A stretch of DNA of 64,000 nucleotides from the NCBI RefSeq assembly GCF_000372725.1, contig NW_005201113.1:252763-316762 (forward strand), given 5' to 3'. The position numbers were made by a program, and so were the translations under genes. How positions within the stretch are numbered: position 1 is the first letter of the stretch; each line of letters opens with the position of its first letter. Under the pieces are notes generated by a model, which was given only the letters and a program-made list of their open reading frames with translations, did no database searches and was not told the DNA's origin. Below, piece by piece: positions 1,886 to 56,100 of the stretch. The DNA is from Emiliania huxleyi CCMP1516 (Eukaryota).

Positions 1886-1948
1886 CCATACCGCGTTGGT
1901 GTCCAGTCCGAGCCTGGCTGTTCTTCACCTTACTACCTACCTACCTAC
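1877..1948 (+). repeat. Dispersed ~50-bp element copy 1 with (CTAC)n tail
   Basis: CGCGTCCACCCATACCGCGTTGGTGTCCAGTCCGAGCCT is also found at 49820 (+) and 61188 (-). Confidence 0.85.
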
Positions 1949-4761: not shown

Positions 4762-4931
4762 GTTGCTTGAAGAAACGAGCCTTTTGCTTTTGCTTGGCCT
4801 TGCGGTTTCTTTCTTTCTTTTTGAAGAGAAGAGGCCGAGTGCGTATTCCTATGCGCCAGAGATGAGAGATCCGCTGCCCCCTGTGCCCAGCCCTCTCCGC
4901 GCGCCGCGATGCCCCTCCCCCCCTCGCTTTT

Positions 4932-14700: not shown

Positions 14701-15101
14701 ATGTTGGATCCAGCCCCAGCCATGCACCCGGAAAGCACCCCCTTGAGGTTGATATTCAGCTGAAGAACCTTCTTCGTTCGGTTGGTTGGGGATGGGACGG
14801 GGAACTTTTGCGAGTGGGCAGGGAACTAGGGGGAGAGGGGGAGGGAGGCCCAGCGAGGGTCTGCGGCTGGATCCTACTGCGCGGCTGGACTAAAGACGCA
14901 CTAAACCTCGCTAAATCTGGATGTAAAGTCGCAGTGAACTCGCGCTAAATTTGCGCTAAATTTGCGCTAAATTTGCGCTAAATTTGCGCTAAATTTGCGC
15001 TAAAGTTGCGCTAAAGTTGCGCTAAATTTGCGCTAAAGTGCGCTAAAGATGCAGTAGATAAACACTTCACACCGCACTAAATTTAGACCCAGGCGCCCTC
15101 C
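11705..15101. mobile_element. 3.4-kb non-autonomous TIR element with 6-bp TSD
   Basis: 29-bp [38 protein letters not shown] on both flanks. Internal arrays (TTTAGCACATA)n at ~13985-14065 and (GCGCTAAATTT)n at ~14942-15046 echo the TIR core. Confidence 0.88.
14456..14547 (-). mobile_element. 5'-truncated non-LTR retroelement 3' end with (TC)n tail and 12-bp TSD
   Basis: GCTGTAATAGAG duplicated at 14444-14455 and 14548-14559. The insert matches the repeats at 51223-51697. Confidence 0.8.
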
Positions 15102-15202
15102 TAAAAAGACGGCTGCCGCAGGGAGCCGCAGGTGCTCAGTTTTGCGGCGTTTTGGGGCGAGAAGCTTTCGCCCCTCCCAGGACGCACCTCCGACGCGCTC
15201 CC

Positions 15203-20931: not shown

Positions 20932-21424
20932 TCGGATGCTCTGAACGGGTTTTTACTTCTCACACCATTAAAGAAAGAAATACAAAAAGTCCCCCCACTT
21001 AAATCGGCCAGCCGCCACTCCGCTTGTGGCTCGGCCGATTTTGCCCGAGTGGCCAATTCCCCCCACACACTTACTTAGACGAGACACGATCTCTATCTCA
21101 ACATATCTCCTTCGACGCCGCATTTCCAAGTTTGGTGCCCGAGTGGTCAACTATGACCAAACTTGGTCGGTTATAACCGATGGCGTCCACTCGATCGAAC
21201 CTCGAGACCCCAGTTCGAGATCGAGTGTCTCGAATCTGTGTCATAATGCGGTTCGTATGCGTACGTCCGTGTGTGTGTGTGTGTGTGTGTGGTGGGGGGG
21301 GAAACACGTGTGAACACAGTGTGTGTGAATTCAGGACGAGCAGCCTCCTACCTGAGCCCATCTCTCCTGAGCCCAGAAAAAAAAACTTGTTGGTTACGAT
21401 GTGTCCGTCCCCCCCCTACGATCG

Positions 21425-24297
21425 ATGGTCCGCGTTCGTCTGGACGTGGGCGGCTGGCATGTCGTCGTCACCGGCGAGCACGCAGTACTGCCCGAAGGCA
21501 TGACGCACCTTCCGGACAGGGCGTTCCGCATGCGCACCACTCTCGTGTCTGTCGCCTTTCCGCACAGCCTCGTCTCCATTGGTAGCTGCGCCTTCCACAG
21601 CTGCTCCGCCCTCGCCTCCGTCGCCCTTCCCGCTGGCCTCACCTCCGTCGGCGACGGTGCCTTCTACCACTGCTCCGCCCTCGCCTCCGTCAACCTCCCT
21701 GCCGGCCTCACCTCCATCGGCCAGCAAGCCTTCGACGGTTGCTCCGCCCTCGCCTCCATCAACCTGTCCGCCGGCCTCACCTCCATCGGCAGCAGCGCCA
21801 GCGTCACCTCCATTGGCGACCGCGCCTTCTCTGGCTGCTCCACCCTCGCCAACGTCGCCCTCCCCGCCAGCGTCACCTCCATCGGCGACAGCGCCTTCTC
21901 CCGCTGCTCCGCCCTCGCCTCCATCTCCCTCCCCGCCGGCCTCACCTCCATCGGCAAGCACGCCTTCTGGGGCTGCTTCGCCCTCTCCTCCGTCGACCTC
22001 CCCGTCGGCCTCACCTCCATCGGCAACTACGCCTTCTGCGGCTGCACCTCCCTCCGCTCCATCACCCTCCCCGCCGGCCTCAGATCCATCGGCCAGGAAG
22101 CCTTCAAGGGCTGCTCCGCCCTCGCCCGTGTCGCCTTCCCCGCCGGCCTCAGATCCATCGGCTTCTGCGCCTTCGCCGACTGCTCCGCCCTCGCCCGCGT
22201 CACCTTCCCCGCCGGCCTCACCTCCATCGGCCAGCAAGCCTTCTACCGCTGCACCTCCCTCGCCTCCATCAGCCTGCCCGGCGGCCTCACCTCCATCGGT
22301 TGGCACGCCTTCTCGAGCTGCTCCGCCCTCGCCCACGTCACGGTACCAACCACCGCGAAGTTCGACGCCTCCGCCTTTTTCACCGACACCGTCGTCCTCC
22401 GCCTCCCGCCGGCAAAGATGCGCACACTCAAGCGCTGGTACGAGGCGGTGGACCTGGTGCTCGCCCACAAGCGCTGCCGCCCTGGCCTTCTCGGCTGTCT
22501 AGAGCGGGCTCGGAGCAGGCTCGCCTCGAAAGGCTCGGGTGGCGCGGCGCGCAAGCGTGATCGCGGGGAGTTCGAGGGCGACTTTGCGGAGGCGGAGGCG
22601 GAGGCGGAGGCGGCGACGCCAGAGACGGCGGCGGTGACGGCGGCGGTGGCGGATGCTGCGATGGAGGCAGCAGATGCTGGCATGCCGGCTGCGCAGCAGC
22701 GGGCGGCGGAGGAGAAGGAGGCGGCTGTGCCGGCTGCGCAGCAGCGGGCGGCGGAGCCTTCAATCGACGCGCGGGGGCACGCCACCGTGCCAGAGGGCAT
22801 CACTTCGATCTGTGACGCAGCCTTCGAGGGCCGCTCATCCCTCATCTCCGTCACCTTCCCTGCCACCCTTACCTCCATCGGCAACTACGCCTTCTGCGGC
22901 TGCACCTCCCTCCGCTCCATCACCCTCCCCGCCAGCCTCACCTCCATCGGCCAGGAAGCCTTCAACGGCTGCTCCGCCCTCGCCAGCGTCGCCTTCCCCG
23001 CCGGCCTCACCTCCATCGGCTTCTGCGCCTTCGCCGACTGCTCCGCCCTCTCCTCCGTCAACCTCCCCGGTGGCCTCAGATCCATCGGCGACTTAGCCTT
23101 CTGCCGCTGTTCCTCCCTCGCCTCCATCAGCCTGCCCGCCGGCCTCACCTCCATCGGTTGGCACGCCTTCTCGAGCTGCTCCGCCCTCGCCCACGTCACG
23201 GTACCAACCACCGCGAAGTTCGACGCCTCCGCCTTTTTCACCGACACCGTCGTCCTCCGCCTCCCGCCGGCAAAGATGCGCACACTCCAGCGCTGGTACG
23301 AGGCGGTGGACCTGGTTCTCGCCCACAAGCGCTGCCGCCCTGTCATTCTCGGCTTTCTAGAGCGGGCTCGGAGCAGGCTCGCCTCGAAAGGCTCGGGTGG
23401 CGCGGCGCGCAAGCGCGATCGCGAGGAGTTCGAGGGCGACTTTGCGGAGGCGGCGGCGGTGATGGAGCCGCCGGTTGAGCGCGACCGCGCGACCACCGAC
23501 CGTAAGCTGGGGGCGGGCTCCTTCGACCGCGGCTGGCGCATCCGCGAGCGCTACCGCGGCGGCGCCAAGAGCGGGCAGTGGAGCTACGTGAGCCCGACGG
23601 GCGACGCCTTCAGCTTGGCGCTAGAGGCTGCTGAGGCGATAGAGGACGAGGCGGTGGCGGCGGCGGCGGCGGCGGCAATGGCGGCTGCGGAGGCGCCTCA
23701 GATGGAGGGGAGTGCAGCGATCGCGGCGGTAGATGCCGTGGTGGCAGAGGTGTCGCCGCTGCCTGCTCGCCCGTCCCGAACCCTGCCCGCGCCCCTCCCA
23801 CACCACCACACCCGACGCTTGTCCTTCTCCCGCCCGCTCAGGCGCCGTCGAGGCCTTCGCCCGCGCCGAGCAGCAGCAAGAAGCGGGGCGGCGCCAGCGA
23901 GCGGAAGAAGCCGCGCTCCCCACACCGCTCCCCGCACCTCGGCTGGTCTCCAATCACAGAGGAGCAGCGCACCTCTCTCCGCGAGGAGGAGGAGGGGTGG
24001 CTCGGCGAGTTCGAGGCGTACTTTCGCGGCAAGCTCTCCCACAAGAACGCGCAGCAAGTGATGAAGCACATCACGCCCCTCGTCGCTGGCAAAGGCGTCA
24101 ATTTCGGACCGGGCGTCGGCAACTTTCTCGCCGGCATCCCCGTCACCCTCTCCTCGGACGTCGCCAATATCCTCGACGCGCTGCACGCCGAGGGGAACGC
24201 CGCCGTGCGCGACCACGACGATTTAAAGGGTGGCTGGCACCTCCGCCACCCGCTCTACAAGCTGCGCGAGTTCCAGGCGCACAAGCTCGGCATGTGA
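21425..24297 (+). CDS. BspA-type (LRR_5) leucine-rich-repeat protein with internal duplication, MBD-like segment and C-terminal domain
   Basis: Many LPAGLTSIGxxAFxxCxAL repeats. The block at ~22010-22590 is duplicated at ~22870-23450. Phase-0 GT-AG intron 23750-23841 joins to the exon ending ...GGWHLRHPLYKLREFQAHKLGM*. Confidence 0.85.
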
Positions 24298-30844: not shown

Positions 30845-32223
30845 GCCGCCGCCCGCCGCCCGCGGCCGGCCCTCTGTGACTCTACTGCCGACTCCCATGC
30901 CGCGATCCCATGCCGCGTCGTGCCCATGCCCACGTCCAAGTCCTCGCCCGCGCCGTCCGCGTCCGCTCCCGCGCCACTCCCCTGAGGAGTCGCCAGCACA
31001 GCCGCCGCCGGCGCACCGCCGCCGGCTGGCTGTGGACACCGAGCCCCCGCCCATGTCGTGAGAGAAGCTCTGAGGCGGGGGCGAGTGCGCTATTGTGTGT
31101 GCGCCCGAGCCCGGCAACAGCGAGCGCCGCGCCCAGCGCGGCGCTGCGGCCTGGCTGCCGGGCGTGGGCGGGTGTGTCTACTGCTGGGGGGCGGGCGGGT
31201 CTCGGAGCCCCATCGCGGCGCCCGTCTGCGCGGCCGCGGTTCGGCTCTGAGTGACGCGGCGCCGCCCGTCCCCACTGTGACAGCTTTCTTCTCGTCTTGG
31301 GTCCGTACCTTCGTTGTTGAGTTATGTGTTTGCGCCGACGAGAAAAAAGACGCGCGAAACCAGAGGAAAATTACGTGCAGGCCACGTGCAAGGCCTAGCG
31401 CTACACGCGCTTTTTAGGCCTTGCCGTATGTGAATCGTGCGTGAGAGAGAGGCGGCAGCACCCACTGAGCACCCACCCACGGTGCCAAGGGCACAAACAA
31501 TAGCAGGAACAACACAGGCGACAGGGCACGCGACGTGAGGCTAGAGCAGACTGCTCCGCCTTTCATCTGTCTGTGTTAGTGCCAGTGCGCGCCAGTCGCC
31601 GTGCGGGAGGAGCGCGGGATGAACCAGCCGGAGAACGCGATGCACCGCCTCGGGGAGGACCTCCGGGACGAGGCACGAGTCAAGGAGCTCGCCGAGAAAT
31701 GGCGGCCCCGCCTCGCGGCGGCACGCTACATTAAGCAGCCCGCATAGGCAGGGGTTGGCCCCCGTCGCCCCCGCACGGCTCGCCAGCAGCGGACACTCAA
31801 GAGGAGGAGATACACACCACGAGATACACCGTTTCATTGCCTCGTCGGGGCTGTGTATCTTCCTCCTGCGCTCCCTGGCCCCGCACAGCGACTTGCGAGG
31901 GCTCGTCTTCGATGGGTTCCACGGTAATGCCAGCGCCGTCGGTGCCGCCCTACTCGCGCCAGCGCCCTCCCTCCCCCATAATTTGACTGGCTCTCGGGCC
32001 CCAGCCGTTCGCGAATGCGCCGTTCGCGCGCTCGACCCTTGGCGCGGCGGAGGCTCGCATTCACCACAGAGCGAGCCGCGTCGCCCAGTCAAATTAAGAT
32101 AGCTACTTGACACCCTGGTGCACACTTGGAGCGCCTCCGCGCATCGCCCGTGTCGATCCCCATGTCAGACGGTAGCTCTGGAGTCCTGGCGCGCAGGGAG
32201 AAGGGCGAGGCACATTCCAGGCA

Positions 32224-34881
32224 GTGACCTCTCGCCCCTCTCCCGAGCCTGCGCAGGTGGCTGCTGCGCCCACAGACGGGCCAGTGCTGGGCACGCGCAT
32301 CCTACAGTCGGAGGCTTGCGCCGACGCTCAGTTCGTGATTGCCGCTCTGCTGCCCCCGCGCGACGCCGCAGCGCTGTCGGGCGTGAACAAGGACTACTAC
32401 TTCATCGCGCGCAGTCCGCTAATTTGGGCGTCGCACGTGCAGCACATTCGCAAGACGAACCCGGAGGTGCAGGCTCCGTTGGCGGTGTACGATGACCCGT
32501 ACGAGGAGTACAAGGGACTTCGTGCTGCGGGAGAGAGGCACTCGGCCGAGGAGCTGGTCTCGCACGTCAAGTCTTTCAAGGAGAAGGAGCTGCTGCTCTT
32601 ACGAACCTTCGGCACCGTGACGGAGCCGGGGACGGAGAGTGCCACTTTCGAGCCAAACGGCCCGATCTCGCTGCCTGTCCCGGCACAGCTCGCGCTGGAG
32701 CTGCTTTTCGCGCTGGACAACGTGCCGTCTTCAAAGGCGGCACCAGTCACGGGGGACGTGTACGCAAAGGTGCCCCTACCCCCCTCCACCCTTCACCGTT
32801 CCTCACGCCATCCGGGACCCTCTCCCAACTCCCTCTCACGCGGTTCCCTCCTCCTCCCTCCGCAGGTTGCGAGTATTCTGAGCGTTAACAAAACATCGCT
32901 CCGGAACTTGCGCGATAAGACGGTCGGCAACACGCGCCGTCCCCTCGACCTCGCCCGACGGCTGGCTGCGCCGTTCGGCGCGCCGGCGGAGGAGGGGGGC
33001 AGCAAGCGAGGTCGGAGGGCCGGAAAGGCGCGCAAGGCGGCTGCGCCAGCGCTCGACGGCGCGACGGTGGGCCTGGCGCCTGATCCGGAGCGGCGACCGC
33101 TACCTCCGGTCGCGCTCCCTCGGGGCGGCGCAGAGAGGTTGCAGCAGCGGAACGTCGCGCTTGTGGCTCGCATGGACGCGGAGGCGGAGGCGCACGCGGC
33201 TACAGCCACGTCTCTGCGCGTCGAGCAGCGCGCGCGAGCGCAGCTCACGGCGGAGGTGCAGAGATTGCGAGAGCGTCTGCAGGATGCGGCACACGTGTCG
33301 GACCAGCAACGTCTGGCGGCGAACGCTCGCATCGACACGCTGAACGGCACCATCCAGAGGATGCAGGCGCAGGCGGAGCGGCTGAGGCTGGCTGCCGCGT
33401 CCGCGCGCGCCGCGGAGCAAGCGGCTCGTGAGGGGCGCGGCGAGGCGCAGTTGCGTGCGTTCCTTGGCCAAGAGCATCAACGGCGCTTGGCGGCCGAGCG
33501 GCGCGTGGATGAGCTGGCTCAACTGCTGGCCGCCTCCGAGTGGCGCGGGAGCCTGGCCGAGCAGGCGTGCCTGGCCGCCGAGCAGCGAGCAGCGGGCGCG
33601 GAGGCCGGGCAAAGGTCGGCGGAGGCCGCGGCGGCCGAAGCGCGGGCGCGGGAGGCCGCATCTTCGTCTTCGAGGTCGAAGGCTTTAAAGAGGCGGTACG
33701 CGGCCGAGGCGCTGGAGCAGAGCCAGACGGGGAAGATCTCGCCGTCGAAGAGAGCCGTTGTGGCCGCGGTCGTGGGGCGTCCCGAGGTGGGCGACGCCAT
33801 CACCCTCAACGGACAGAGGTTCGTGCGCGTCCCCGCAGCGCGTGTCGGCAGTAGCGATACGTCGGAACGGCAGGACCGGAGGCGTACACGCACTACGACG
33901 CAGGTGCTCGGGCACCTCGCGGGCGGTGAGGAGCACGTCGTCTCACTCATGCAGACGCACGCGCGCGCCAACCCTCGCTTGTACGCGCAGCTGGGCGAAA
34001 AGCTCAACAAGAAGCTGTCGACCGAGGAGACCGTCACGCTCGTCGGCGAGATGACTGGCGCGCTGGGCGAGTGCGTGCGCGGCTACCTGAAGGGCATCGG
34101 CGTCCAGATTGCGAACCGCTCAGAGGTCCGCGCTGCGCTGCGAGCCGGTGAGCACACGCACGAGACGGGGACGTTCACCGTCGCCGACGAGAAGTCGCCC
34201 TCGAAAACGAAGACTGCGGCGTGGATTCGCGTCGTCGACCTGTTGGCGAGCGTGCAGCAAATGGTGAGCGAGCACGCGGCGGCCGGCGACCTCGAGTGGC
34301 CGTCCTCGTGCAAAGACAGCGAGATCCAGGTGGTCATCACGGCGGACAAGGGCGGCGACTCCACAAAGTGGGTGCTCAAGCTGCTCAACACGCGGCACGC
34401 CGACTCGACGCGGTCGAGCCTGCTGCTGGCGCTGCTCACCAAGGTGAAGGACGTGTACGTGCACGTGCAGACGGTGTTCGAGCCGATCTACCGGCAGGCC
34501 AACGTGATCGAGGCGTTGGGCCTCACGGTGATGGCGCCGTGGAAGCCGCGGTTTAACCGTGCAGAGATCTGCTTGGCGAGGCAGCACCCCAACGGCCCCA
34601 ACTATCCTGTCCGCGCGCCCCCAAAGGTTGCTGCGTATGACGCCGGGAAGGCGGTGCGCGTGATGCTGTCGGTGCTCTCCTTCCAGTATGGCGGCTCTGC
34701 AGTGTCCTTGTCGCTGCAGCCGCGGGCGCAGCAGTCGAGACGGGCGGCCTCGAAGAAGGCGGTGGTACCGGCTGCCAACTGGAAAGGCACGCGCAAGCAG
34801 CCGAGCGCGCCGGTGGCCGCGCCGGTGGCCGAGCAGGGTGAGTGCGCAGTTGGCATCGCGAGTGGCGAGAGGCGAGACTGA
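32224..34881 (+). pseudogene. F-box-like / coiled-coil / Chapaev-Transib-like DDE transposase, C-terminally truncated
   Basis: AQFVIAALLPPRDAAALSGVNKDYYFIARSPLIW (F-box-like). IQVVITADKGGDSTKWVLKLLN..ADS..LLLALL..KDVY..VFEPIYRQAN resembles the first catalytic-Asp region (GD[K/H]GG.S.K) of Chapaev-type transposases. In-frame intron 32770-32865; sequence character changes near 34553. Confidence 0.6.
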
Positions 34882-35334: not shown

Positions 35335-37082
35335 ATGACCCACCTCGTCGCGGACGGCGACCTCGCCGCCACCGCCGACGACGCCGACGCCGCAGCGGAC
35401 CTCTTCCTCGAGGCTGGCGTCTGCGTCTTTGAAGCAGCGCTGCCGCCGTCTCTCGTCGCCGCCTGCCGCTCGGTGCTCGAACGCAAGTCGCGGCTGCTGG
35501 ACGAGCGCCTCGCGGCTCGAGGCGTCGACCTGCAGGCACCGTGGCGCTTCAACGAGGTTTGCCGCCGCCGCTTCGCTCGCTACGACCTCCGCGGCTGGGC
35601 GCTCTCCGACGCCATCTTCACCGAGTCTCTGCTGCTGTGGTCAGCCGCGCCGTGGCTGCCGTTTGTGCGGAGCGTGCTCGGAGACGACGTCAAGGAGCTG
35701 TGGCGCGGCGTGGTCGACAATCGGCCAGGCAGCGAGACGCAGGGCTGGCACCGCGACGGAGGCTTCCTCTTCCCGAACGGTGCCGAGCACCGACGCCTCC
35801 TCCCTCTCTTGACACTCCAACACGCAGACCCTTCCATCACACGCCTGGCGCATTCCCCGAGAGGACTGGTGGTGGGCCGCCCGCAGCCGCGAACAGCGTC
35901 TCTTCACGCTTCGAGCTTTAGCAGGCGTCGACCTGCCTCCGCACTGCCTGACCATCTTTGTGCCTCTGGTCGACCTGCTCACCGATGAGCTCGGCCCGCC
36001 ACAGTTCTTCCCAGGTCAAGCCGAGACTTGGCCGAGACCTAGCCGAGATCTGGCCGAGGTCTGGCCGAGGTCTGGCCGAGGTCTGGCGGAGATTCGGCCA
36101 TGTGTCTATCTGAGGTCTAGCCGAGATCCAGCCGAGGCCTAGGCGAGGTCTGCGAGATCCCACCAAGCAAACCACCGTTCCCAGCCGAGCGGCGATGGAG
36201 GGCTGCAGTGCGGTGAAGCGTCTCTTCACACCTCCAAGCCGTGAACAGGCTCGCGGAGGTGTACGCGCGAGCACCTCTACACTGGCCTCGGCTCTTCACA
36301 CCTCCAAGCCGTGAACAGGCTCGCAGAGGTGTACGCGCGAGCACCTCTACACTGGCCTCGGCGACGGCAGCTGCCACCTGCCCCACTGCACGCCGCAGCT
36401 GTGCGCCGACGCTCTCGCCTTTGACTACCGCATCATCCACCGCGGCCAGGCGAGATCGCCCCGAGATTTCCCGAGATCACTCGAGACCGCCCGAGATCGT
36501 GATCACCGAGATCGCCCGAGATCGCCCACCCGGGATTGGCTGATAATGCCGGCGACGTTGCTGAGAACGAAGACTAGTCACGCAACCATACTAGTGATAG
36601 TCATGGGCTGCGCGTACCCCTCGAGCGCCATAATACGAGCTTTCTCTCGGAACACAGGCTAACCTTAGCAGGGGCGCGGCGCGCCGCTCCAGGCCGATGC
36701 TGTGCCTCGTCGCCAAGCCTCCGCTCGCCTCTTCACAGCCGCCCGGTGTGAACAGGCCGATGCTGTACCTCGTCTACGCCAAGCCGTGGTTCACCGACGT
36801 CCACAACTTCCCCTCCGACGCGCCCCTCTTTGCGGATCCAGACGCGGCGGTCGGCGGCCAACACGCCGCAGGCAACGAGGGCGGTGGTGGGGCGGGTGGC
36901 GGGGCGGGGCAGCAACACGGCGAGCCGCTGCAACCGTCGCCGCCGCCGTCGCCGCCGCCGTCGCCGCCGCCGTCGCCGCCGGCTCAGCCGCCGCCGCCGC
37001 CGCCATCGCGGCCGTTACCAGCGCAGCCGCCGCCGCCGCCGCCGCCGCCGCCACCGCAGCAGCAGCAGCAGCAGCAGCAGCC

Positions 37083-37126
<44 letters not shown>

Positions 37127-37181
37127 CGCAGCAGCAACCGCAGCAGCAGCAGCAGCAACCGCAGCAGCAGCAGCAGCAACC

Positions 37182-37251
<70 letters not shown>

Positions 37252-38691: not shown

Positions 38692-41028
38692 TCACATCAT
38701 CGACGCTCCCGGCCCCGCCTGCAGCGAGCCCCCCGCCTTGCCATTCTCGACTGTGTGGTCCGCGATGCCGTTCAGCGAGTTGAAGAAGGAGATGGCGCCG
38801 AGGGCGGCGATGCCGATGATCGCGAGCACCGTTTGGAGCACCTCGGGGAGCGGCGCCTTCCCTTCCTCGCCCGAGGTCGTAAAGAGGCTCAGCTGCTCCG
38901 TGCTGAAGCCGGCCAGCACCCCGATGCCGAGGCAGAGGTCGAGGAAGGCGGACCCAGTGATGAGGCCAGACGCGGCGAGGATCGACTCGTGCGTGCGCAG
39001 GAACGCCTCGTTCGAGCTCTTGGTGCACATGCGGACCTGCTCGCCCGCGAATCGACACAAGGAGCCGACAAGGATGCCCATGCCGAGAGATGCAGGGAGG
39101 TAGAGCCCCACCGCCATGGCCATCGCAGGGATCTGTATGCTCTCGCGCGACACCAGGAAATCCGCAAGGACGCCGACGACGCCAATGCCAATGCCGACGG
39201 CTACCGGCTTGAACGGGACCTTCGCGGCGAGCAGCAGCCCGTCGACCAGCGTGGCGAACATCTGGCCCTGCGGCGCAATCAAGCGCTCGGTGCCGAGACC
39301 ATACGCGTCGTCGGCGACGTACAGCGCGCACGGCACCACGATTGAGCCGGCCAGGCCGCCGATGAGCTGCGCGACGAAACCAGAGCGCGGCGGGAAGCCG
39401 CACAGCTGCAGCGCCTTGCAGTCCTGGCTGAGGTCGTTGGCCGCACTTACGGCGACACACGTGCCCGTGAGGACGTTCTGCAGTAGCTCGACGTCGGAAA
39501 AGGCGTTGCGTCCCCACGCGAGCAATAGGAGGCAGAAGACGAGGGCGGTGATGAAGATGGTGCCCGAGACCGGCGACGCGGACGTTCCGATCTGGAGGGA
39601 GAGGACGGCGCCTAATCATGGACATGTGCTGTGAAGAGACGCTCCTTCCCCTCGAGCCCTGAACCGCCCTCGGCACCGAGCGCGGACATGAGAAGGGCCA
39701 TAAAGACAAAGGCGGCGAGCATGGTGATAGTGAAGCCGTCGAGGCCTGTTCACAGCCTGCGCATTAGTGCACACCTACCGTGTGGCCACCGTTGGCGAGG
39801 ATCCCTCTGGGGCCGTCTGTGAGGAGGATTTGCAGGCCCATCAAGCAGGACCCAGCGGCGATGGCGACCCATAAGAGCGACACCACTCGAGAGGGCAGGG
39901 AGAGCAGCTCCGCCTCGCTCTTGGATAGCTCGTCCACCATGGCGGCCCCCGTCGGGCTGAGAAAGCGCAGCATAGCGTATATCACCGCGGCCGTCATCGC
40001 GCCGCCTCCAATCCAACTGGTGGAGTCGGAGGGCCAGTCAACGGCCGCCTCTGGGTCGGAGAACTTCATCTCGGCGAGCATGTACTCGATGATCAGGCGG
40101 ATGGCCGCACCACCAAAGATGACGAGCGCGGTTGGAAGCGTGAGCAGGGAGCCTATGGAACGCATCGTGCATTCTTCGTGTCGTCGACGCCGACATCAAG
40201 AACCAGCGAGGGGCAGGCGGGAGCGGGCGCCGATCCCGATGTAAACAGGCGAGAAGGGGACCTGCACCTCGAAGGCCTTGCCGGCGGCCGTCTCCATCGC
40301 AAAGAGGGTCACGTTGGCCTTGGCGAGTGAGAAGTACACCAGCAGGGGCGAAAGGAGCGAGGTGAGGCAGGCAAGGAGGAGCGACACACACAATGCCGGC
40401 CTCCTCCCTTGCGGCTCCGTCGCTGTCTTAATCAGCGTGACACACGCCTGAGCCTCTGGCGCCGGCAACGACGGGTCGGACAGCAAGCTCTTTGTGAGGA
40501 GCCCGACGACGCCCTGGCCGAAAACGGAGCCGGCGAGGCACACGCAGATTGTCATGCCGATGTTGACTTTGGGCAGCTGCTTGTCAGGTGGCAGGTTGTC
40601 GTCGATGCAGCCCTGCGCCGCCTGCCATTCCATCGTCTGGAGGTCGCAGTCGATGCCCGCCTCGTCTAGAGCTGCCTGTGCCTTTTGAAGGTGAAGCACC
40701 TGCATCAGCGGCCCGGCAAAGACACAGCCAGTTACCACTGGCATCGCAGCCGAGCCAGTGACCTGCGCCAGCGCGAGGAATCGAGGGCCGTTCGCGCCCT
40801 GGGCAACCTTGCCAAGCACGCCCCAGCAAAAGAGCACAACCAGCGGACTCACCTGCATGAAAGCGGGGGTGACGGTGACCTGTGAGGCCTCTTGCAGGTG
40901 TGACAAATCGCAATGCTCACCCCGGGCGTGATTCCGGCCTTGAGCGACGCAACAACCATGGTCGTCGAGAGGAGCATCGTCGTCGCCGAGCCGACGATGA
41001 TTGCGAGCACGTCCGCGCCGAAGCCCAT
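38692..41028 (-). CDS. OPT/YSL-family oligopeptide or metal-chelate transporter (multi-exon)
   Basis: SLKAGITPGVS, TGCVFAGP, AANDLSQDCKA, LIAPQGQMFATLV, AMAMAVGLYLP, ASGLITGSA. Many hydrophobic helices. Confidence 0.88.
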
Positions 41029-41498
41029 TGCGCAGCCGCCGGCACGGAGATGCCACAAGAGGGCGGACGGGCGGAGAAGCTCTCCGTCTGCAAGAAAAGA
41101 ATTTTTTGTCCGAAGCCGGGGAAGAAGACTCCGAGGAAGACGAAACACCAGTGGTAATCCCGTCGTCAGCTGTAACGATGCACCCGAAGGGGACCCCAGC
41201 GCCAACATCATCGGTGGAGGTACAAGTGTTCGAAGAGAGAGTGGACCTGAGCAACGATATGACTTGGCGGCAAATGATCGCAGTGGGCGTCAGAAGAGTC
41301 GTCCTTGCGCGAGGAGAGCTGGATAAACTCGAGGGGCCGAAATATGCCGCGAGGAGGGCAGAGTTGCGCCGAAAGGCGGGAGAAGCCGCGAGAGCAAGGG
41401 ATCGGCAGGCGGCGGCGGCGTCGCAGGACGAGGCAGTGAGACGAGAGCGACGCGACAGAGGAGGAAGCGACAGGAGGGAGAACGACGAGAGTGGGACG

Positions 41499-41665
41499 AA
41501 CAAGGTGCAGCTCGACAAGGTGTGAACAGCGTCTCTTCACACCTCTGGCTGTGAACAGGCCCTCTCAACAACAAAATGCAGCTCGACAAGGTGAGCGCGC
41601 TGGTGGAGGACGCAAGGGCGCAGGGCTGCGAGGTCCTGTGCGGCGGAGGCAGGCGCGAGGGGTCC
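41499..41665 (+). pseudogene. Isolated aldehyde dehydrogenase exon fragment
   Basis: After the acceptor at 41558: GPLNNKMQLDKVSALVEDARAQGCEVLCGG, a typical ALDH segment. The rest of the gene is absent. Confidence 0.65.
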
Positions 41666-42501
41666 CAGCCGATGTAGAGAGTGTTCCCCGTTATCATTGA
41701 TCCAAAGCACTGCCAACGGGTCAGAGTTATGACGTCCGTGTATGAGTTTACGAGGGTGAGAAGGAAGAGCGTCGCCTGGCAGTAGAACGCATTTGCTTAT
41801 CGCCCCGCGTGCTGGGTGTCTGGGACGACGCTCCGCTCTGCGGCAACCGGCTCCTTGTCTTCGGAACTTCCACTATGCACGGTCTGCATGTGGTTGTCTG
41901 CACGCAACACAAAGATGTGTTGACGGGCGAACGAACGCGCGCGCTCAGAAAGAAGTACACGAGCCGACGCACGATAGAGCGGAATTGGAATTAATTTCCG
42001 TCACCAACGCCGGCGGGGGGCAGCGGGAGCGGAGGAGGTGGGAGTTGGATGATGGGGAGATGATGAAAAAAGACTTTATAACGAACTCCCTCGCACAGCA
42101 CTGGGCACGGGACTGGCGCGCACTGGCACTAACACAGGTACACCACGGGAGCCGCCTACGCGACTCCTGCGAGAACGGCGAGGTATTGTAGATTTACTGG
42201 GCCGTCCCAAGAACAATTTTAGAGAAAGAAAACATGCAGGGTCAATCGCGAGACGCTCTCTTAGTCCCGCCTCCCTTCCGCCATGCAGGCCGACGTGGGC
42301 AGCGATGCCGCGAGTTTGTTGTCGGTGCTCTCCGGAGTGCTGGGCTCGAGCCTCACCTTCGATGCAGCGCTACCATTCACCCCGCAGCCACTCGCCGTGA
42401 CCTCAACCGCGCTCGCACCTGCATCCCGCGTCAGTGCAAAGTACGCGTTCTACAGCGCAGGCTGCGCGGCGACGCGAGCTCAGCTTGCACGATTGCCCGC
42501 C

Positions 42502-43185
42502 ATGACGCTGGCAAGCTCAATCGCGCTTGCGCTGTTGGCGGCGGTTTGCTCTTCCTCGGCGCCGCGCCTCGTCCCGCTCGCGCTCCTCCTACTGGCGGAT
42601 CGCTGCGAAGCCGCGGGCACGATCTGCGACAACAGCGTGCCATGCATGGGCTGCCCCACCAGCGCTGTCGGCACGTCGCTGTGCGACGGCACCTACACGG
42701 GCACCCGGGTGGATCTGTCCAGCCGAGGGCTATCGGGGACGATCCCTCCGCAGCTGGGCGACATCTCGCAGCTGGAGTATCTTATCCTGATAGACAACTC
42801 CATTTCGGGCACCATCCCTCCGCAGACGAGCAAGCTCTCGCGGCTGGAGGCGCTTAGTCTGAACAGCAACTCCATCTCGGGCACCATCCCTTCGGATACG
42901 GGCAAGCTCTCGCTGCTGCAGTATCTTTACCTGAACAGCAACTCCATCTCGGGCACCATCCCTCCAGATACGGGCAAGCTCTCGCAGCTGGTGAGGCTTG
43001 ACCTGTACGACAATGACATCTCCGGAACCGTGCCGTCGCAGCTCAACAACCTGCCGCTAAACACCTGCTACCTGGGTGGTACAAACCACTTCGCCTGCCC
43101 CCTGCCCGCCCTTCCCGATGTCTGCTCGCTCTTTCCTACTGAGTGCAACTACCCGCCGCCCTCGCCGCCCTCGCCGCTCCCGCCG
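42502..43185 (+). CDS. Signal peptide plus plant-receptor-type LRR ectodomain (N-terminal part of candidate receptor)
   Basis: Hydrophobic leader; LxxNxISGTIPxxxGxLxxL repeats; Cys cap NHFACPLP; start of a PPPSPPSP stalk, then cut by an insertion. Confidence 0.85.
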
Positions 43186-43446
43186 AGCAGGAAGGCTGCT
43201 GGCTCCTGACTCATCCCCCAAATCCTCCACACCTTGGCGGCCTGAAACCTTACCATTCCGACACCTCACACACACCCCCTCCCCTAGGGCTAAGCAGTGC
43301 GCGAGCCCACCCGACTTCAGGCGAGACGTTGACCCCTCTTTTGGAACAGTCTGTCAGTGGCTGCACTAAACGCCCCCAGAAGCGCCCGGCGCGGGCAGAA
43401 GACTAGGGGAAAAAAAAGCGAAAACCTAGCTCCGCTGGGAGAATGG
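43186..43446 (+). mobile_element. ~260-bp repeat (transposon end) inserted in the Pro-rich stalk; inverted copy at 47753-48007
   Basis: AGCAGGAAGGCTGCTGGCTCCTGACTCATCCCCCAAATCC... is near-identical to the reverse complement of 47753-48007. Runs into the assembly gap. Confidence 0.8.
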
Positions 43447-43606
43447 NNNNNNNNNNNNNNNNNNNNNNNNNNNNNNNNNNNNNNNNNNNNNNNNNNNNNN
43501 NNNNNNNNNNNNNNNNNNNNNNNNNNNNNNNNNNNNNNNNNNNNNNNNNNNNNNNNNNNNNNNNNNNNNNNNNNNNNNNNNNNNNNNNNNNNNNNNNNNN
43601 NNNNNN

Positions 43607-45444
43607 CCCAACCACCGCCCTTGCCAACATGGCCCTAGCCGCCACCGCCCTCGCCACCACCGCCTTCGCCAACACCGCCCTTGCCGCCGTCGCCGCCGTC
43701 GGCGCCACCGCCCTCGGCGCCCTCGGCGCCACCGGCCGCGCCACCGGCCGCGCCACCGGCAATTCCTCCGTCGCAGCCGCCGCCGACGCCGCCGTCGCCA
43801 CCGCCGTCGCCGCCGTCGCCGCCGTCGCCGCCGTCGCCACCGCCGTCGCCGCCGTTGCCGCCGTCGCCGCCGTCGCCGCCGTCGCCACCGCCGTCGCCGC
43901 CGCCACCGCCACCGCCCTCGCCACCACCGCCCTCGCCACCACCGCCCTCGCCACCACCGCCCTCGCCACCACCGCCCTCGCCGCCGTCGCCGCCGTCGCC
44001 GCCACCGCAGCCTCCCTCGCCGCCGTCCCAACCGCCCCTGCCGCCCCCGTCGCCCCCGCGGCCCCCCGCAGCACCTGCGCCGCCGCTCCTTCCATCGCAA
44101 GGCCAGGAGGCGGAGATGATCCTTGCGATCGCGGTGGGGTCGGGTGTTGGGGCCATCGGCCTCGTCGCCGCGATCGTCTGCAGCTGCGCGCTCTTGGAGA
44201 CAAGGAGGCGGAGCAGGGCGCGCGAGGGGCGCGTCACGGTCCGAGTGGAGCCACGCCAGGAGGTGGAGCTCGCGCAGGTGGAAGAGCCACGCCAAGAGGC
44301 CGGTGGCGACAACGAGCAGAGCGCGCGCGACAGCACGCAGGACGACGCCCTGAATGCGGAGGAGGACTTGCAAGAGCCCAGCGTGGTCCACACCATGATG
44401 GTCAGCGCCGTCGCCTCGCTGGTCGGCGGCCTCGACGCCCTCCGCGTGCTCCACACCGCCACCGAGGCTCACGTCGAGGAGAACCGCTTCGCCAACCCTC
44501 CTTCAGAGCTCGTGTTTGGGCGCCCCGCCACAGCTGCCTTGGGCGTGGAGCACTACATGTGCGCTCCAAGAGAGGCTGTCCTTCAAGGACTGATCGACGG
44601 CACCGCCGCCGTCATCCGGGAGGTGAGTGCCGGCGGCACTGACGACGACCGCGAGTGCCTCGACTACATCCTGCACGCCGAGGCGGGCTCGAGCGAACAA
44701 ACCTATCAGGGCGGGCTCAAGCGCGACTGCGACGAACGAGGCAGGGTGCTTGCGTGCCGCACCGTGGCCGACAGCAGCGGCGTGATGCGCGGGATGCGGC
44801 TAGAGGACTTTGTCTCTCACCGGAGCGCGCGGCTGGCCAACCTGACTGAGGCGCACGTGGTCGCTCTTCGTCTCTATACTACGCAGGCAAGCTCCTCTGT
44901 CTCCAACCCTCCCGCTGCCCTCTGACTCGGCCCGTTTCTCACCTCGTCCTCTCTCGGATCCCAGGCCTACAAGAGCATAAACAACCCGCTGCGCGACAAG
45001 GACCGCTTCTTGCGCGGCGAGCCGCACATGCTGCCAGTGACGGTCGCACTAATCCGTGATGCGCTCGGCAAGCTGCGGGCGGTCGAGGCGGACCACTCGC
45101 GCGATTCCGCATTGCGTCGCGTCTACCTCTACCGTGGCATGAAGGACGTCACGGCGCCGGCCGACTTCATGGAGCAGGGCGGGACGGAGCTCGCGCCCAT
45201 GTCGACCACATCGGACCTCAGCGTCGCGATGAAGTACTCTGCGAGCGTCAAGGCGGTGCTGCTGCGGCTCATCACCGACTCCTTCTACGAGCGCGGCCCT
45301 AACATAAGCTTCCTCTCCGCCTTCCCCGGCGAGGCGGAGTTCCTCTTCCCACCGCTGACGTACCTGCAACCGACCGGCGACGTCGAGACGGTGGTGGTCG
45401 AGGGGCTTTCCTACGAGGTGGTGGACGTGCGGCCGCGGATCTGA
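43607..45444 (+). CDS. Extensin-like stalk, TM helix and cytoplasmic R-S-E mono-ADP-ribosyltransferase domain
   Basis: (SPPP)n; TM ILAIAVGSGVGAIGLVAAIVCSCALL followed by RRRSR; ALRLYTT/AYKSINNPLR; LYRGM (R), MSTTSD (STS), FPGEAEFLFPP (ExE). GC-AG intron 44887-44964. Confidence 0.85.
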
Positions 45445-47179: not shown

Positions 47180-47752
47180 CTCGGCCTTAGCTCAGCGTTT
47201 CCGACACAGCGGTCACAGTGGCCGCTCGGCTACTACCTGATAGTCCTACCACATGGCCGAAGCTGAGCTGCTACTTCTGCTACGATATAGCGCATCACCT
47301 GGCCGCAGCTGAGCACACTCAGTGACAGCTTCACGCTTAGTCCGGACGTTGCTGTCTTTGTGAGCGTTATTGATCCATTGCCAGGCTTTAGGGAGGGGGA
47401 GAGGGAGAGATCTCCGGTAGCCACAGCTCGTACGCGATCCCAGGGCAGGGGGGTGTGGTTTCTGGAGCTCTAAGGGGGGACAGAGAGAGGAAGGGAGATT
47501 GGTGTGCCTGTTTTTCGCGCTAAGCATTTTTTCCCCTCTAGCCTCTACGGCTCTAGCTTGTAGCTAAAGCCGTATAGGTGTCGAGAGACTCACTTATTTT
47601 TGATTTTTTTCATGCGCGAGAGGCCGAGAGAGATGCGTTCAAAGTTCAATTTTGAAAAAAAACTGTTCAGTTTTCAAAGGCAAAAACGCCAGCCTACGCC
47701 CTCCCCTCACACTGACACTTCTCCCCTATTCCCGTCTTTAGGTTGCGCACAT

Positions 47753-48007
47753 CTCCCAGCGAGCTAGGTTCTCCGCTTTTTCTCCCCTAGTCATCTGCCC
47801 GCGCCGCGCGCCTCTGTGGGCGTCTAGTGCAGCCACTGACAGAACTGTTCCAAAGGAGTGGTCAACGTCTCGCCTGAAGTCGGGTGGGCTCGCGCACTGC
47901 TTAGCCCTAGGGGAGGGGTGTGTGTGAGGTGTCGGAATGGTAAGGTTTCAGGCCGCCAAGGTGTGGGGGATTTGGGGGATGAGTCAGGAGCCAGCAGCCT
48001 TCCTGCT
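47753..48007 (-). mobile_element. Second copy of the ~260-bp transposon-end repeat
   Basis: Inverted relative to 43186-43446. Confidence 0.8.
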
Positions 48008-48840
48008 GGACCTGAGTTCACAGCTCCTCCGCCCGACGGGGTGGTCCCTTGGATTCGGGCCCCGCTCCCTTTTCCTGCGCCTGGTCTGTCCCTGTCAAGT
48101 GTGTGTTGCGAGATGCAGAGCTGGTTAGGCTGGAGCGCGGGCGGTGCGGTGGCAGGCGAGGGCAGCGCGGTAGGCGAGAGGCGGCCGCGGGGCTTCGAGT
48201 GGCGCGATAGGAGGGTAGGCTGGCTGTGGAGGGGCGCCGCGTGGCCTCGGCAAATGAGTAGTGCTTTATGAGCGGCCAGTTTTGTGCGTATTGCATATCG
48301 AGCCTGCGGTGTGGCCTAGTTGGTGCAGCGTTCGGGTCGGGGACGTTTTGGTCGTTGGTTCGAGCCCAGCTGGTGCAGTTCGTAGTCGCGTAGCGCGCGG
48401 GTGCGCGGCAGCCTCGGCAACCGAGGCGACAGTGGCGAGCAGGGGCGAGCAGGGGCGAGCAGGGGTCAGAGCAGTGCGGCGCGCCGAATTTTTTTCGATG
48501 GGCTCGGTCAGTGGGCGTGTCAGGAGGCGGCCGGCCGGGGGAAACTCGGCAGTAAAACTCCCGCGCCGGCCCAGGAGGTGGGAGTGTCACGGAGGCGGCC
48601 ATTGGCGCGCGCTCCTTCTCTTCGTGGGTCCGAGTTTTCCAAAGTTCAATTTTGATTAGTCATCCACTTTTTGTGAAATTTGGACATTTCTCACACGTTG
48701 TGTGCTAGGAAAGCTGGCTGCCGCCCAAGGCATGGCCGTCAAGCGGAGATAAGGCGCGGAGATGCGGCGGTGAGTGCGGCGGCGAAACTGCGTGGAGAAC
48801 CACGGCGCACCTGGCAGGGCGTCCTAGTGACGCACCCGCC

Positions 48841-52472: not shown

Positions 52473-53106
52473 ATGAGCGCAGCCGAGGCCCTCGCCCCGG
52501 CCAAGCAGGCGATCAAGCAGCAGGCGTTTTATATGAAGAAGGCGCGCAATCCCCGCAGATATACGAGCGACACACGCCCCAGCAGCACCGCACATCGCCC
52601 GCCTGCCGCCAGCCTCGGCACGCCGTCGCCGCGCCGCCCGCTCGTGTGATCGTCCCCGCCGCGCTCCAACGCCTCGCAGGCGCTCGACCAGCGCCACCTC
52701 CGCACTGCCCTCCACCATGCCGCGACGATGATCGGCGAGCTCCGCACGTCGGCGCTCGGGCCAAAGGCGTACTACGAGGTGTACATCGACGTGACGACGG
52801 AGCTGCGGCACCTGGAGGAGTTCTTCGAGGCGGAGCACGAGCGCGGCCGCCCCATGGTCGAGCTGTACGAGCTCGTCCAGCACGCGGGCAACGTGCTCCC
52901 GCGCTTGTACCTGCTGCTGGCGGTCGGCCGCGTCTTTCTTCAGTCCAAGGAGGCGGCCGCGAAGGTCGTCCTCGAGGACCTGGTCGAGCACTGCAAGGGG
53001 GTGCAGCAGCCGCTGCGCGGCCTCTTCCTGCGCAACTACCTGCTGCAGTGCACGCGCGAGCGGCTGCCAGACACGGGGTCTGACTACACAGACACAAACA
53101 CAGACA

Positions 53107-53174
<68 letters not shown>

Positions 53175-56100
53175 TGCTCTCTCAGGTCGGACTACGAGGG
53201 CGAGGGAGGGACCGTCTCGGACGCAATCAAGATCGTCCTCGCCAACTTCGGCGAGATGGCAAAGCTCTGGGTGCGTCTCCCCACCTCTCTCCCCACCTCT
53301 CTCCCCACCTCTCTCCCCACCTCTCTCTCCACCTCTCTCCCCACCTCTCTCCCCACCTCTCTCCCCACCTCTCTCCCCACCTCTCTCCCCACCTCTCTCC
53401 CCACCTCTCTCTCCACCTCTCTCCCCACCTCTCTCCCCACCTCTCTCCCCACCTCTCTCCCCACCTCTCTCTTCCACAGGTGCGGATGCAGCACCAGGGG
53501 CCGGCGGCGAACAAGGAGCAGCGCGAGAAGGAGCGCGCCGTGTCAAGGGTGGTGCTGCAGCTGTGGACGGCGTCTCTTCACGGCTGCGGCTGTGAGCAGG
53601 AGCGCGCCGAGCTCAAGGTGGTCGTCGGCGGCAACTTGCACCGCCTGGCCTCGCTGGAGGGGGTGACGCTGCAGGTGTGTGAAGTAGACCTCGGGGCGGG
53701 GGCATGCGGCGCAGCACACAAACGGCGATAGACTGGCGCAATCCATGCCGGGGCGCACGCGGCGGCAAACGGTCTCTGCCGACACCGCGTATGGGCAAGA
53801 CATCAGATCGCAAGCGCAAGGCGCGAGAGTAGAGGCCGGCGCCGCCGCCGGCTGCGCAGGTGTACACCGCAGAGGTGGTGCAGCCGCTGCTCGAGCTGAT
53901 CGTGTCGTGCAAGGACGGGCTGGCGCAGGAGTACCTCCTCGAGTGCGTCTGCCAGGTCTTCCCGGTCGCGTACCACACCGCCACGCTCCCCACCCTCCTC
54001 CGCTTCCTCTCCTGGCTGTCCGCTGCCGCCGACGAGTCGGCACCCAAGATGTAGCCGAGAGATAGCCGAGAGATAGCCGACGCACACACGCACACACACT
54101 CACACACACACTCTCTCTCTCACACACACACACACACACGCACACGCACACACGCACACACACACACACACACGCCGCCGCCGCCGCCTTCGCCGCCGCC
54201 GCCGCCGCCTTCGCCGCCGCCGCCGCCGCCGCCTTCGCCGCCGCCGCCTTCCTCTCGTATTCGGCCATCCTCTGTGCTATATCTCGGCTGTATCTCGGCG
54301 AAGCCTCGGCAGGCGATCCTCTCGCACCTGATCAGCCGCCTCTGCGCGCTCGAGCCTGCCGACGGCGAAACAGAGGCGCGCGACGTCTTCACGCCCGTCG
54401 CCGACCACGTCGAGCGGCGCTGCGCCTCGCTGCGGCTGCTGCCGTCGCTCGCCCTCGCCCTCGCCCTCGCGCGGCTCGCGCTGGAGGCGAGATGCGCCCA
54501 GGCTGCCCGAGATGCGCCCGGAGATTGCACGAGATCGAGACTCATCAAGCCGAGGCCCGAGCGCCTCCGATCTCGGGCGACCTCGGCCGATCTCGGCCGA
54601 TCTCGTGTGATAGGCGTACGAGGCGCACACCGAGTACCTCGAGCGCGCGCTCTCCCTCGCGAGCACGCGGCTCGAGTCGCTCGGCGTCGTGACCGAGAAG
54701 CGGGCGGTGGCGGTGGTGCAGGACTTGCTCTCGCTGCCGCTGAAGCGCAAGGGCGGCGACGTGCTGTACGTGCTCGAGCTGACCGAGTGGCCGAGGCTGG
54801 CGGCCCTAGAAGCGGAGTACGTGTTCATGTCCCCCAACCAGCGCCCGAGAGGACACGTGTTAAGCCGTACTCGGCCGCACTCCGCTGTATTCACTGTCCT
54901 CGCCTCCGTTGTACTCACGCGGTGCTCTGAAGACGACTCTGCACGATACCGTCCTCCCGCCCTGATGTCGGCGTCTTCAGCACGTAGGCTCGTGACGCTC
55001 GGCGCTCCACATCTCCCCACATCTCCCCATATCTCCCCATATCTCCCCACATCTCCCCACATCTCCCCACATCTCCCCACATCTCCCCACATCTCCCCAC
55101 ATCTCCCCACATCTCCCCATATCTCCCCATATCTCCCCATATCTCCCCATATCTCCCACGTAGGCTCGTGTCGCGGCTCGAGCCCGACGAGCAGCGCCGA
55201 GTGGTGTCGCGCCTGCTGCGGGAGGTTGCGGGCCGCGGCTGCGTCATCTCGGACTCGCTTCGCGCAGACCGGCTGCTCGTGCTGTGCGCGCCGCTGCTCC
55301 AAGGGGACTCGTCGCCCGCCGCGCCGGCCAATGGCGCCGAGACGGCAAACGGCGCCTCTGACCGCTCGGATGCCGACGGCGAGATGTCGCCGAGAGCGCT
55401 CCGAGAGCCCGCCGGAGATGCGCGCCGAGATGCCGCCGCGATGTCGCCGCGATGCCGCCGCGATGTCGCCGCGATGCGGCCGAGAGCCCAACCGTGGCCC
55501 AAGAGCGAGTCCGCATCGGCTCATGAGCATCGGCTAGGCTTGGACGTTTCCTAGACACTTCCTAGACACTTCCTAGACACTTCCTAGCATCGGCTAGGCT
55601 TGGACGCGGAGCTCGCCGACGAGATGGCGCCGGTGGCCGCCATGATGCACGCGCTCGCGCACGAGGACACCGACGCTGAGGCGCGCGTGCTCAACGCGGC
55701 GTACAAGCACGCCGCCGCCGCCGCGCCGGGTCGGCTGCCCCACGTGCTCGTGCCGCTCCTCTTCCGCTTCCTGCAGGAGCCCACCCCACCCTCACCCACC
55801 CCGCCCCACCCCACCCCACATCACCCCACCCCACCCCACCCCACATCACCCCACCCACCCCGCGGCCCGGCTGATGAGGCGAGGAGCCACCCCTCCCGCC
55901 CCACCCGCCCACCGCCCCACCCGCCCACCGCCCCACCCGCCCACCGCCCACCACGCCGCCGTCCTGCGACCAGCTGGCGCGCCGCGTGCGGCTGGCCGAG
56001 GAGGGCGGGGCCACGCTCGAGGTGTCGTGCGGCAAGCTGCTCGCCTTTGTCGGCCAGATCGTCCAGGCGGTGACCGCCGCCGCGCCCAACCTCGCGCTGC

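What the first reader, a model, noticed from the sequence alone, without database searches (positions are those of the whole stretch)
42502..45444. Candidate LRR receptor coupled to a cytoplasmic ADP-ribosyltransferase ('receptor-ART')
Seen: signal peptide, plant-RLK-style LRRs, an extensin-like (SPPP)n stalk on both sides of an insertion plus gap, one TM helix with basic residues behind it, then an ART domain with all cholera-toxin-like catalytic motifs (LYRG, STTS, ExE). Known: LRR-TM receptors normally signal through kinase or TIR domains, and R-S-E ARTs are mostly toxins or ecto-enzymes. Inference: a ligand-gated intracellular mono-ART, perhaps an innate-immunity or cell-death receptor against viruses or bacteria in an alga. 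Caveat: the two halves are separated by a transposon end and a 160-N gap, so the link is inferred from shared strand and the continuous Pro stalk.
Basis: partly seen in the sequence, partly recalled or inferred. Interest (0 to 1): 0.88.

Follow-up and report, generated by a model that had tools for sequence, protein, structure and literature searches.

The report
Algal receptors with inner ADP-ribosylating enzyme
This algal gene, interrupted here by an inserted repeat and an assembly gap, likely encodes a surface receptor whose inside end is predicted to be an ADP-ribosylating enzyme; unbroken versions occur in marine plankton sequences and would be a new way for cells to signal danger.

Summary
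Both halves are real. Upstream: signal-peptide-like start, five plant-type LRRs, Cys cap, start of a Pro stalk (42502-43185). Downstream: Pro stalk, one TM helix, basic residues, then an R-S-E ART module split by a conserved GC-AG intron (43639-45444). An 85%-identical relative models as an ART2.2/HopU1/Tre1-like fold (pLDDT 93, Z 17.1). The module defines a large, mainly haptophyte family (1,114 clusters at 50% identity), fused to many ectodomains; in 46 of 52 single-TM members the charge bias puts the ART inside the cell. The link at this locus is still unproven: a repeat starts at 43186, a 160-N gap follows, an in-frame stop lies at 43636, and the closest ART relatives carry other ectodomains. 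This copy is probably a pseudogene or mis-assembled. Ligand gating, substrate and immune role are inferred. In a published G. huxleyi infection dataset, 4 of 4 ART-annotated responsive genes rise 0.5 h after virus addition; they were not shown to belong to this family. No description of the architecture was found in ten paper searches.

The parts
42502..42615 (+). hydrophobic leader, likely signal peptide (residues 1-38)
   Evidence: sequence; same block in paralog P0323; judged by eye
42616..43152 (+). Cys N-cap, five plant-type LRRs, four-Cys C-cap (C-x-L...N-x-F-x-C...C...C)
   Evidence: Pfam LRR_1/LRR_8; model matches plant receptor ectodomains, target TM-score about 0.6 to the short SERK/BAK1 ones; N-x-F-x-C cap motif in 7 of 10 unbroken LRR-ARTs
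43153..43185 (+). first 11 residues of the Pro/Ser stalk
   Evidence: paralog P0323 ends in the same stalk start
43186..43446 (+). dispersed repeat that interrupts the stalk; first in-frame stop at 43207
   Evidence: 94% to 48007-47752; contigs of four runs continue upstream of 43186 into the repeat's own sequence
43447..43606 (.). 160-N assembly gap
43607..44118 (+). Pro/Ser stalk (99 Pro in 147 residues from 43639); in-frame TAG at 43636-43638
44119..44181 (+). single predicted TM helix, followed by a basic cluster
   Evidence: hydropathy 2.45; K/R 6 after, 0 before
44182..44481 (+). acidic, poorly conserved linker of about 100 residues
44482..44886 (+). ART module, first exon part: helical subdomain and family-specific insert
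   Evidence: tblastn 78% to P0001/P0002 over 44368-45441; model
44887..44964 (+). 78-nt GC-AG intron
44965..45444 (+). ART catalytic exon: R 45133, S 45202, E 45331, E 45337; stop 45442-45444
   Evidence: R 297, S 299, E 295, E 295 of 300 aligned modules
47654..48654 (-). second, 1001-nt copy of the repeat, bounded by a 14-nt direct repeat

Best explanation
The locus is likely one interrupted gene for a single-pass haptophyte receptor: a short LRR ectodomain on a proline stalk outside and, inside, a predicted arginine-specific mono-ADP-ribosyltransferase that would be switched on when the ectodomain binds a microbial or damage signal. Shown: the domains, their order, the R-S-E residues, the fold (on an 85%-identical relative), the inside position of the ART by charge bias, and unbroken LRR-TM-ART proteins elsewhere. 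Inferred: (a) the two halves here belong together and were split by a roughly 360-nt truncated repeat whose last ~98 nt lie in the gap, leaving this copy non-functional (about 0.7); (b) the enzyme moves ADP-ribose from NAD+ to arginine of a protein (about 0.8, from the ExE motif); (c) ligand-driven clustering, or pairing with a second receptor as SERK/BAK1 do, brings the ART to its target at the membrane (about 0.55); (d) the output is an early danger response, parallel to the receptor-TIR proteins of the same algae (about 0.45). The ART is a portable output module, recombined repeatedly with LRR, ANF/periplasmic-binding, lectin, beta-propeller, Cys-rich and multi-TM sensors.
For: Fold: AF2 of P0002 pLDDT 93.4, pTM 0.92; VIA best ART2.2 Z 17.1, rmsd 3.2, 208 aligned, then HopU1 15.0 and Tre1 14.1. 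Catalytic residues in 295-299 of 300 modules. Topology: 46 of 52 single-TM members have more K/R after the TM, 3 fewer, 3 tied. Ten unbroken plant-type LRR-TM-ARTs among 320 members (7 of the 10 with Pfam LRR hits); four of them have further full-length cluster members on other contigs. The window's LRR cap motif recurs in 7 of the 10. LRR-ARTs are rejected as one clade (AU p 6e-6), so new LRR-ART fusions arise repeatedly and one in this clade is unremarkable. 8 of 13 related loci read upstream show stalk-TM-basic-ART. Both halves lie on one strand, the first ends and the second starts in stalk, and the gap is sized to hold the repeat's remaining 98 nt. PMC12489294 Table S2: 4 of 4 PF01129-annotated responsive genes are in the early cluster (548 of 2174 genes; post hoc p 0.004), up 1.8-3.4 log2 at 0.5 h, 3 tagged transmembrane.
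Against: No listed contig bridges the LRR to the ART; the LRR half and the insert were laid on four runs and 400 pieces were not shown. The window's closest ART relatives (64-87% identical) carry ANF, Cys-rich, stalk-only or unknown N-termini, while LRR-ARTs are only 41-48% identical; 0 of 18 related loci hit the window's LRR. Two in-frame stops interrupt this copy (43207, 43636). 58 of 179 members with long N-termini have no TM, so the module also works without a receptor. The four virus-responsive ART genes matched no named member; their family is unverified and the number of non-responsive ART genes is unknown. TM and signal calls rest on a hydropathy heuristic. No activity, ligand or substrate is known, and expression of this copy was not tested.
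Confidence: 0.5

Rival explanations
1. The halves are two genes brought together by the repeat and the gap. The ART half is a receptor-ART whose own ectodomain is missing or is only the stalk; the LRR half is a member of a multicopy LRR-stalk family with another or no output. The receptor-ART class stays real, but this locus is not an LRR-ART.
For: Closest ART relatives have non-LRR or stalk-only N-termini; L004/L005 show a stalk of more than 400 residues with no recognisable ectodomain. The LRR half has many near copies in the four runs. Proline repeats and dispersed repeats are common mis-join sites (general knowledge).
Against: The insert differs by 6% from the neighbouring copy, so it is not a simple duplicate of it. 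The gap has a non-round size, unlike the 100-N gap at 10284. Stalk flanks the break on both sides. LRR-ART fusions arose several times.
Confidence: 0.25
2. The receptor is real but the enzyme acts as an NAD+ hydrolase, or makes a small ADP-ribose signal, draining NAD+ to stop an infected cell, as TIR/SARM1-type effectors do.
For: The best fold match is rat ART2.2, which is an NAD glycohydrolase as well (recalled). G. huxleyi has ectodomain-TM-TIR proteins with similar ectodomain types and early induction (PMC12489294 section 20).
Against: The first Glu of ExE, typical of arginine-modifying ARTs (recalled), is kept in 295 of 300 modules. WWE-FHA-ART and kinase-ART fusions suggest protein targets.
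Confidence: 0.12
3. The ectodomain is an adhesion or anchoring part and does not gate the enzyme; the ART works constitutively at the membrane in housekeeping or life-cycle signalling unrelated to defence.
For: Many members have only stalk or multi-TM N-termini, or are soluble. The TM-to-ART linker is long and poorly conserved (about 100 residues), which argues against tight allosteric coupling.
Against: Recurrent recruitment of recognised ligand-binding folds (LRR, ANF, C-type lectin, VOMI, BNR, LVIVD, ephrin-like, MAM) and rapid shuffling fit a sensor repertoire. Early induction of ART-annotated genes after virus addition.
Confidence: 0.13

Closest known systems
Vertebrate ecto-ARTs (ARTC family, rat ART2.2, PDB 1GXY)
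   Same: Best fold match over the whole module, helical part included (Z 17.1, rmsd 3.2, 208 aligned); R-S-E motifs
   Different: Those are GPI-anchored or secreted with the enzyme outside (recalled); here the enzyme follows a TM helix on the inside; 18% identity
Bacterial R-S-ExE effectors HopU1, XopAI, Tre1, ExoS/T, C3, VIP2
   Same: Fold (Z 11-15) and weak sequence match (Tre1 1e-5)
   Different: They are delivered into other cells; this is an intron-containing algal gene anchored in its own membrane; no prokaryotic or viral relative found by pattern
Plant LRR receptor kinases, especially SERK/BAK1 co-receptors
   Same: Plant-type LRRs, short five-repeat ectodomain plus Ser-Pro stalk and one TM (SERK layout recalled)
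   Different: ART in place of the kinase; different Cys C-cap; much longer stalk
G. huxleyi ectodomain-TM-TIR proteins (PMC12489294) and Toll-like receptors
   Same: Ectodomain, TM or multi-TM, then an NAD-using domain inside; early induction after virus addition
   Different: Output is an ART fold, not TIR
Receptor guanylyl/adenylyl cyclases with ANF-type ectodomains (recalled)
   Same: P0007/P0008 have ANF_receptor-TM-enzyme order
   Different: Enzyme is an ART, not a cyclase

Membership tests
R-S-E (ARTC) ADP-ribosyltransferases | Arg in first strand, Ser-Thr-Ser/Thr motif, ExE motif | tested here: met
   YRG 45130, MSTT 45199, EAE 45331; 295-299 of 300 modules
R-S-E (ARTC) ADP-ribosyltransferases | ARTC fold | tested here: met
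   model of 85%-identical P0002: Z 17.1 to ART2.2, 21 chains at Z 8 or more, all ART-fold entries by title
R-S-E (ARTC) ADP-ribosyltransferases | NAD+-dependent transfer to arginine | not testable with these tools
   needs an assay
Vertebrate ecto-ARTs | Catalytic domain outside the cell, GPI anchor or secretion | tested here: not met
   domain follows TM and basic cluster and ends the protein; 46 of 52 single-TM members alike
Cholera/pertussis toxin subgroup | Closest fold to CT/PT catalytic subunits | tested here: inconclusive
   listed matches are ART2.2, HopU1, Tre1, ExoS, C3, VIP2 types; lists are representatives
Plant LRR receptor kinases | Plant-type LRR ectodomain | tested here: met
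Plant LRR receptor kinases | Cytoplasmic protein kinase | tested here: not met
   no kinase hit in Pfam; ART fold
Toll-like / receptor-TIR proteins | Cytoplasmic TIR domain | tested here: not met
   no TIR hit; ART fold
LRR-extensins (for the LRR half alone) | LRR plus Ser-Pro repeat with no TM or inner domain | tested here: inconclusive
   LRR half and paralog P0323 both break at the stalk
LRR-TM-ART receptors (described here) | One continuous reading frame from LRR to ART | tested here: not met
   repeat, gap and stops at 43207 and 43636 in this copy; met in 10 homologs

The most novel reading that the evidence does not exclude
Haptophytes and other marine protists run a whole class of enzyme-linked receptors that signal by arginine ADP-ribosylation instead of phosphorylation: thousands of shuffled sensor-TM-ART genes forming a fast-evolving innate immune repertoire that fires within minutes of giant-virus or bacterial contact, using a toxin-type enzyme turned inward.
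Probability: 0.3. Interest if true: 0.92.

Novelty: new variant of a known kind. Interest (0 to 1): 0.77.

Why it matters
Known enzyme-linked receptors signal through kinases, phosphatases, cyclases or TIR domains, and eukaryotic R-S-E ARTs are known mainly as surface ecto-enzymes (recalled). A receptor with an inward-facing ART would add a new output chemistry. How bloom-forming haptophytes sense viruses is an open question; this family supplies named, testable candidates (E. huxleyi models EMIHUDRAFT_104049 and 194206 have TM-ART order) and a simple assay. The window's own copy matters less than the family it reveals.

Tried and rejected
No whole genome is held, so paralogs in this assembly could not be counted. 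A homolog search with the LRR half was swamped by long bacterial and plant LRR proteins; only P0323 was informative. Loose ends at 43184-43185 run into proline codons in all four runs, but they can come from any Pro-rich gene, so I do not count them as a bridge. Depth is not a copy number. Pattern scans found no relative in viral contigs (0 of 59 candidate stretches), prokaryote genomes (0 of 10) or phages; these are limited by patterns and thresholds. A 23-nt LRR-cap pattern found nothing in viral contigs. A C-cap-only phmmer search was dominated by generic LRR matches. Homodimer prediction of the ART module with NAD gave no verdict (score 0.01). Cholera and pertussis toxin subunits were not among the listed fold matches, which does not exclude them. 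Earlier findings of this scan: none. ESM Atlas: unnamed haptophyte ART clusters at 0.97 for P0002; only leads under 0.9 for P0147. I considered the insert being spliced out as an intron; untested. A 2015 review on ART natural history (recalled) is not held and may mention such architectures.

Full report
Source. The window is about 65% GC with GC-AG introns. The closest named relatives of both halves are from Emiliania huxleyi and Gephyrocapsa oceanica, so I infer a coccolithophore. No whole genome is held.

The observation. An ORF from ATG 42502 has a hydrophobic leader, a Cys cap, five LRR motifs and a four-Cys C-cap, then 11 stalk residues. Its model matches plant receptor ectodomains, with target TM-scores near 0.6 for the short SERK/BAK1 ones. 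At 43186 a repeat begins that matches 48007-47752 at 94%. It starts at position 648 of a 1001-nt copy bounded by a 14-nt direct repeat, and 98 nt of that copy remain after the match ends. A 160-N gap follows. After it come nine stalk-like residues, an in-frame TAG at 43636, 147 residues with 99 Pro, one TM helix (44119-44181), a basic cluster, a linker of about 100 residues and the ART module. A 78-nt GC-AG intron splits the module. The same intron position is present in four related loci and absent in two.

The enzyme. A search with the last exon gave 193 proteins at E 1e-5 or better among 889 candidates. A profile of 46 of them hits 1,114 clusters of 50% identity at E 1e-30 and 3,247 at 1e-10 (the weaker ones may include other ART families). 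Named members are from Emiliania, Chrysochromulina, Prymnesium, two cryptophytes and a picozoan. I folded P0002, 85% identical to the window's module, in place of the intron-split window sequence: pLDDT 93.4, pTM 0.92. VIA-align ranks rat ART2.2 first (Z 17.1, rmsd 3.2, 208 aligned), then HopU1, XopAI, Tre1, ExoS, Vis and C3; Foldseek agrees. Of 320 members held, 299 had a near-complete module; with the window's row, R, S, E and E are kept in 297, 299, 295 and 295 of 300. Activity is predicted, not shown.

Topology and architecture. By a hydropathy heuristic, 52 of 320 members have one TM before the module, 73 several and 195 none; 137 of those 195 have under 150 residues upstream and are probably truncated. 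In 46 of the 52 the basic residues follow the TM, 3 go the other way and 3 tie, placing the ART inside. The rows are related, so the sign test overstates this. Ten members carry plant-type LRRs before the TM: P0101, P0122, P0123, P0147, P0174, P0212, P0354, P0366, P0375, P0437; seven have Pfam LRR hits. All ten keep R and S, nine keep both E. For the four looked up, further full-length members with LRR motifs lie on other contigs, which argues against assembly chimeras. Other ectodomains seen among 57 and 30 proteins scanned: BspA-type LRR, ANF receptor, C-type lectin, VOMI, LVIVD, BNR, ephrin-like, MAM; soluble partners include ankyrin, WD40, PH, kinase, WWE-FHA and A20 zinc finger. On a tree of 51 chosen modules (all with a named ectodomain plus 26 hand-picked others) the ten LRR members need 8 changes and are rejected as one clade (AU p 6e-6). 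The sensor parts are therefore shuffled.

Is this locus one gene? For: one strand, stalk on both sides of the break, a gap able to hold the rest of the repeat, an LRR cap shared with 7 of the 10 unbroken fusions, and a paralog that also runs from LRR into stalk. Against: nothing bridges it. In four runs laid on 42300-43446, repeat contigs pass 43186 into the repeat's own upstream sequence, and no listed piece spans the junction; 400 pieces were not shown. The window's ART clade has ANF, Cys-rich, stalk-only or truncated N-termini (64-87% identity), while LRR-ARTs are 41-48% identical. None of 18 related loci hits the window's LRR; 8 of the 13 read upstream show stalk-TM-basic-ART. I put one gene at about 0.7. 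With stops at 43207 and 43636 this copy is probably dead or mis-assembled.

Mechanism. Most likely the ectodomain binds a microbial or damage cue, receptors cluster or pair with a partner, and the ART modifies arginine on a protein near the membrane. The short five-repeat ectodomain resembles co-receptors (SERK layout recalled). The long loose linker favours proximity over allostery (inference). Circumstantial support: in PMC12489294 Table S2, all 4 PF01129-annotated genes among 2,174 responsive genes fall in the 548-gene early cluster, up 1.8-3.4 log2 at 0.5 h after virus addition, 3 tagged transmembrane (post hoc p 0.004). Their ids matched no named member in my look-ups, the total number of ART genes is unknown, and the main text does not mention them. 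The paper describes ectodomain-TM-TIR proteins in the same cluster, a parallel NAD-using output.

Literature. Ten searches found no description of a receptor with a cytoplasmic ART in algae. Seen: PMC12489294 (listing, passages, section 20 whole, supplement 1 part 1 and four rows; the second supplement only by term search); PMC9503650 and PMC3417536 (passages; they state that eukaryotes took up toxin-type ARTs several times); other papers only as listings. The library lacks most subscription papers, and a recalled 2015 ART review was not held. UniRef already labels some members as arginine ARTs automatically, so the domain is annotated while the receptor class appears undescribed.

Verdict. 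Observation confirmed; receptor-ART class well supported as an architecture; link at this locus likely but unproven; gating and immune role inferred. New variant of enzyme-linked receptor, interest 0.77.

Noticed in passing
window 47654-48654 (-): 1001-nt non-coding-looking element bounded by a 14-nt direct repeat, with a T run before the second copy; source family of the insert in the LRR gene. Class unknown.
   Followed up: partly
window 21371-24061 (+): 896-aa ORF with many BspA-type LRRs (Pfam LRR_5 7e-136); BspA LRR genes are up in virus-resistant G. huxleyi.
   Followed up: no
window 776-1921 (-), 3274-4848 (-), 15062-16567 (+), 32176-34878 (+): ORFs with LRR_6, DUF5710, ankyrin and DUF1280 hits.
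   Followed up: no
window 38695-41536 (-) and 52650-53663 (+): OPT oligopeptide transporter and Vps35 exons: ordinary eukaryotic neighbours.
   Followed up: no
window 10115-10283 and 13588-13756; 13948-14075 and 14902-15055: 169-nt inverted repeat pair 3.3 kb apart next to the 100-N gap, and two facing arrays of an 11-nt unit.
   Followed up: no
window 37050-37250: Long CAG/polyglutamine tract.
   Followed up: no
proteins P0336, P0337, P0029, P0138, P0145: Members with two ART domains in tandem, two of them behind a PH-like N-terminus.
   Followed up: no
proteins P0146, P0196, P0215, P0440, P0185: WWE-FHA-ART (Prymnesium parvum), kinase-ART, Ion_trans-ART and TRP-like multi-TM-ART fusions.
   Followed up: no
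ESM Atlas clusters for P0147: Rotifer clusters combining LRR_6 and ART (score 0.78, lead only): a possibly independent LRR-ART pairing.
   Followed up: no
P0441 and P0448: Two E. huxleyi family members (EOD12907, EOD12887) have near accession numbers and the same longest-contig length, suggesting a local cluster.
   Followed up: no
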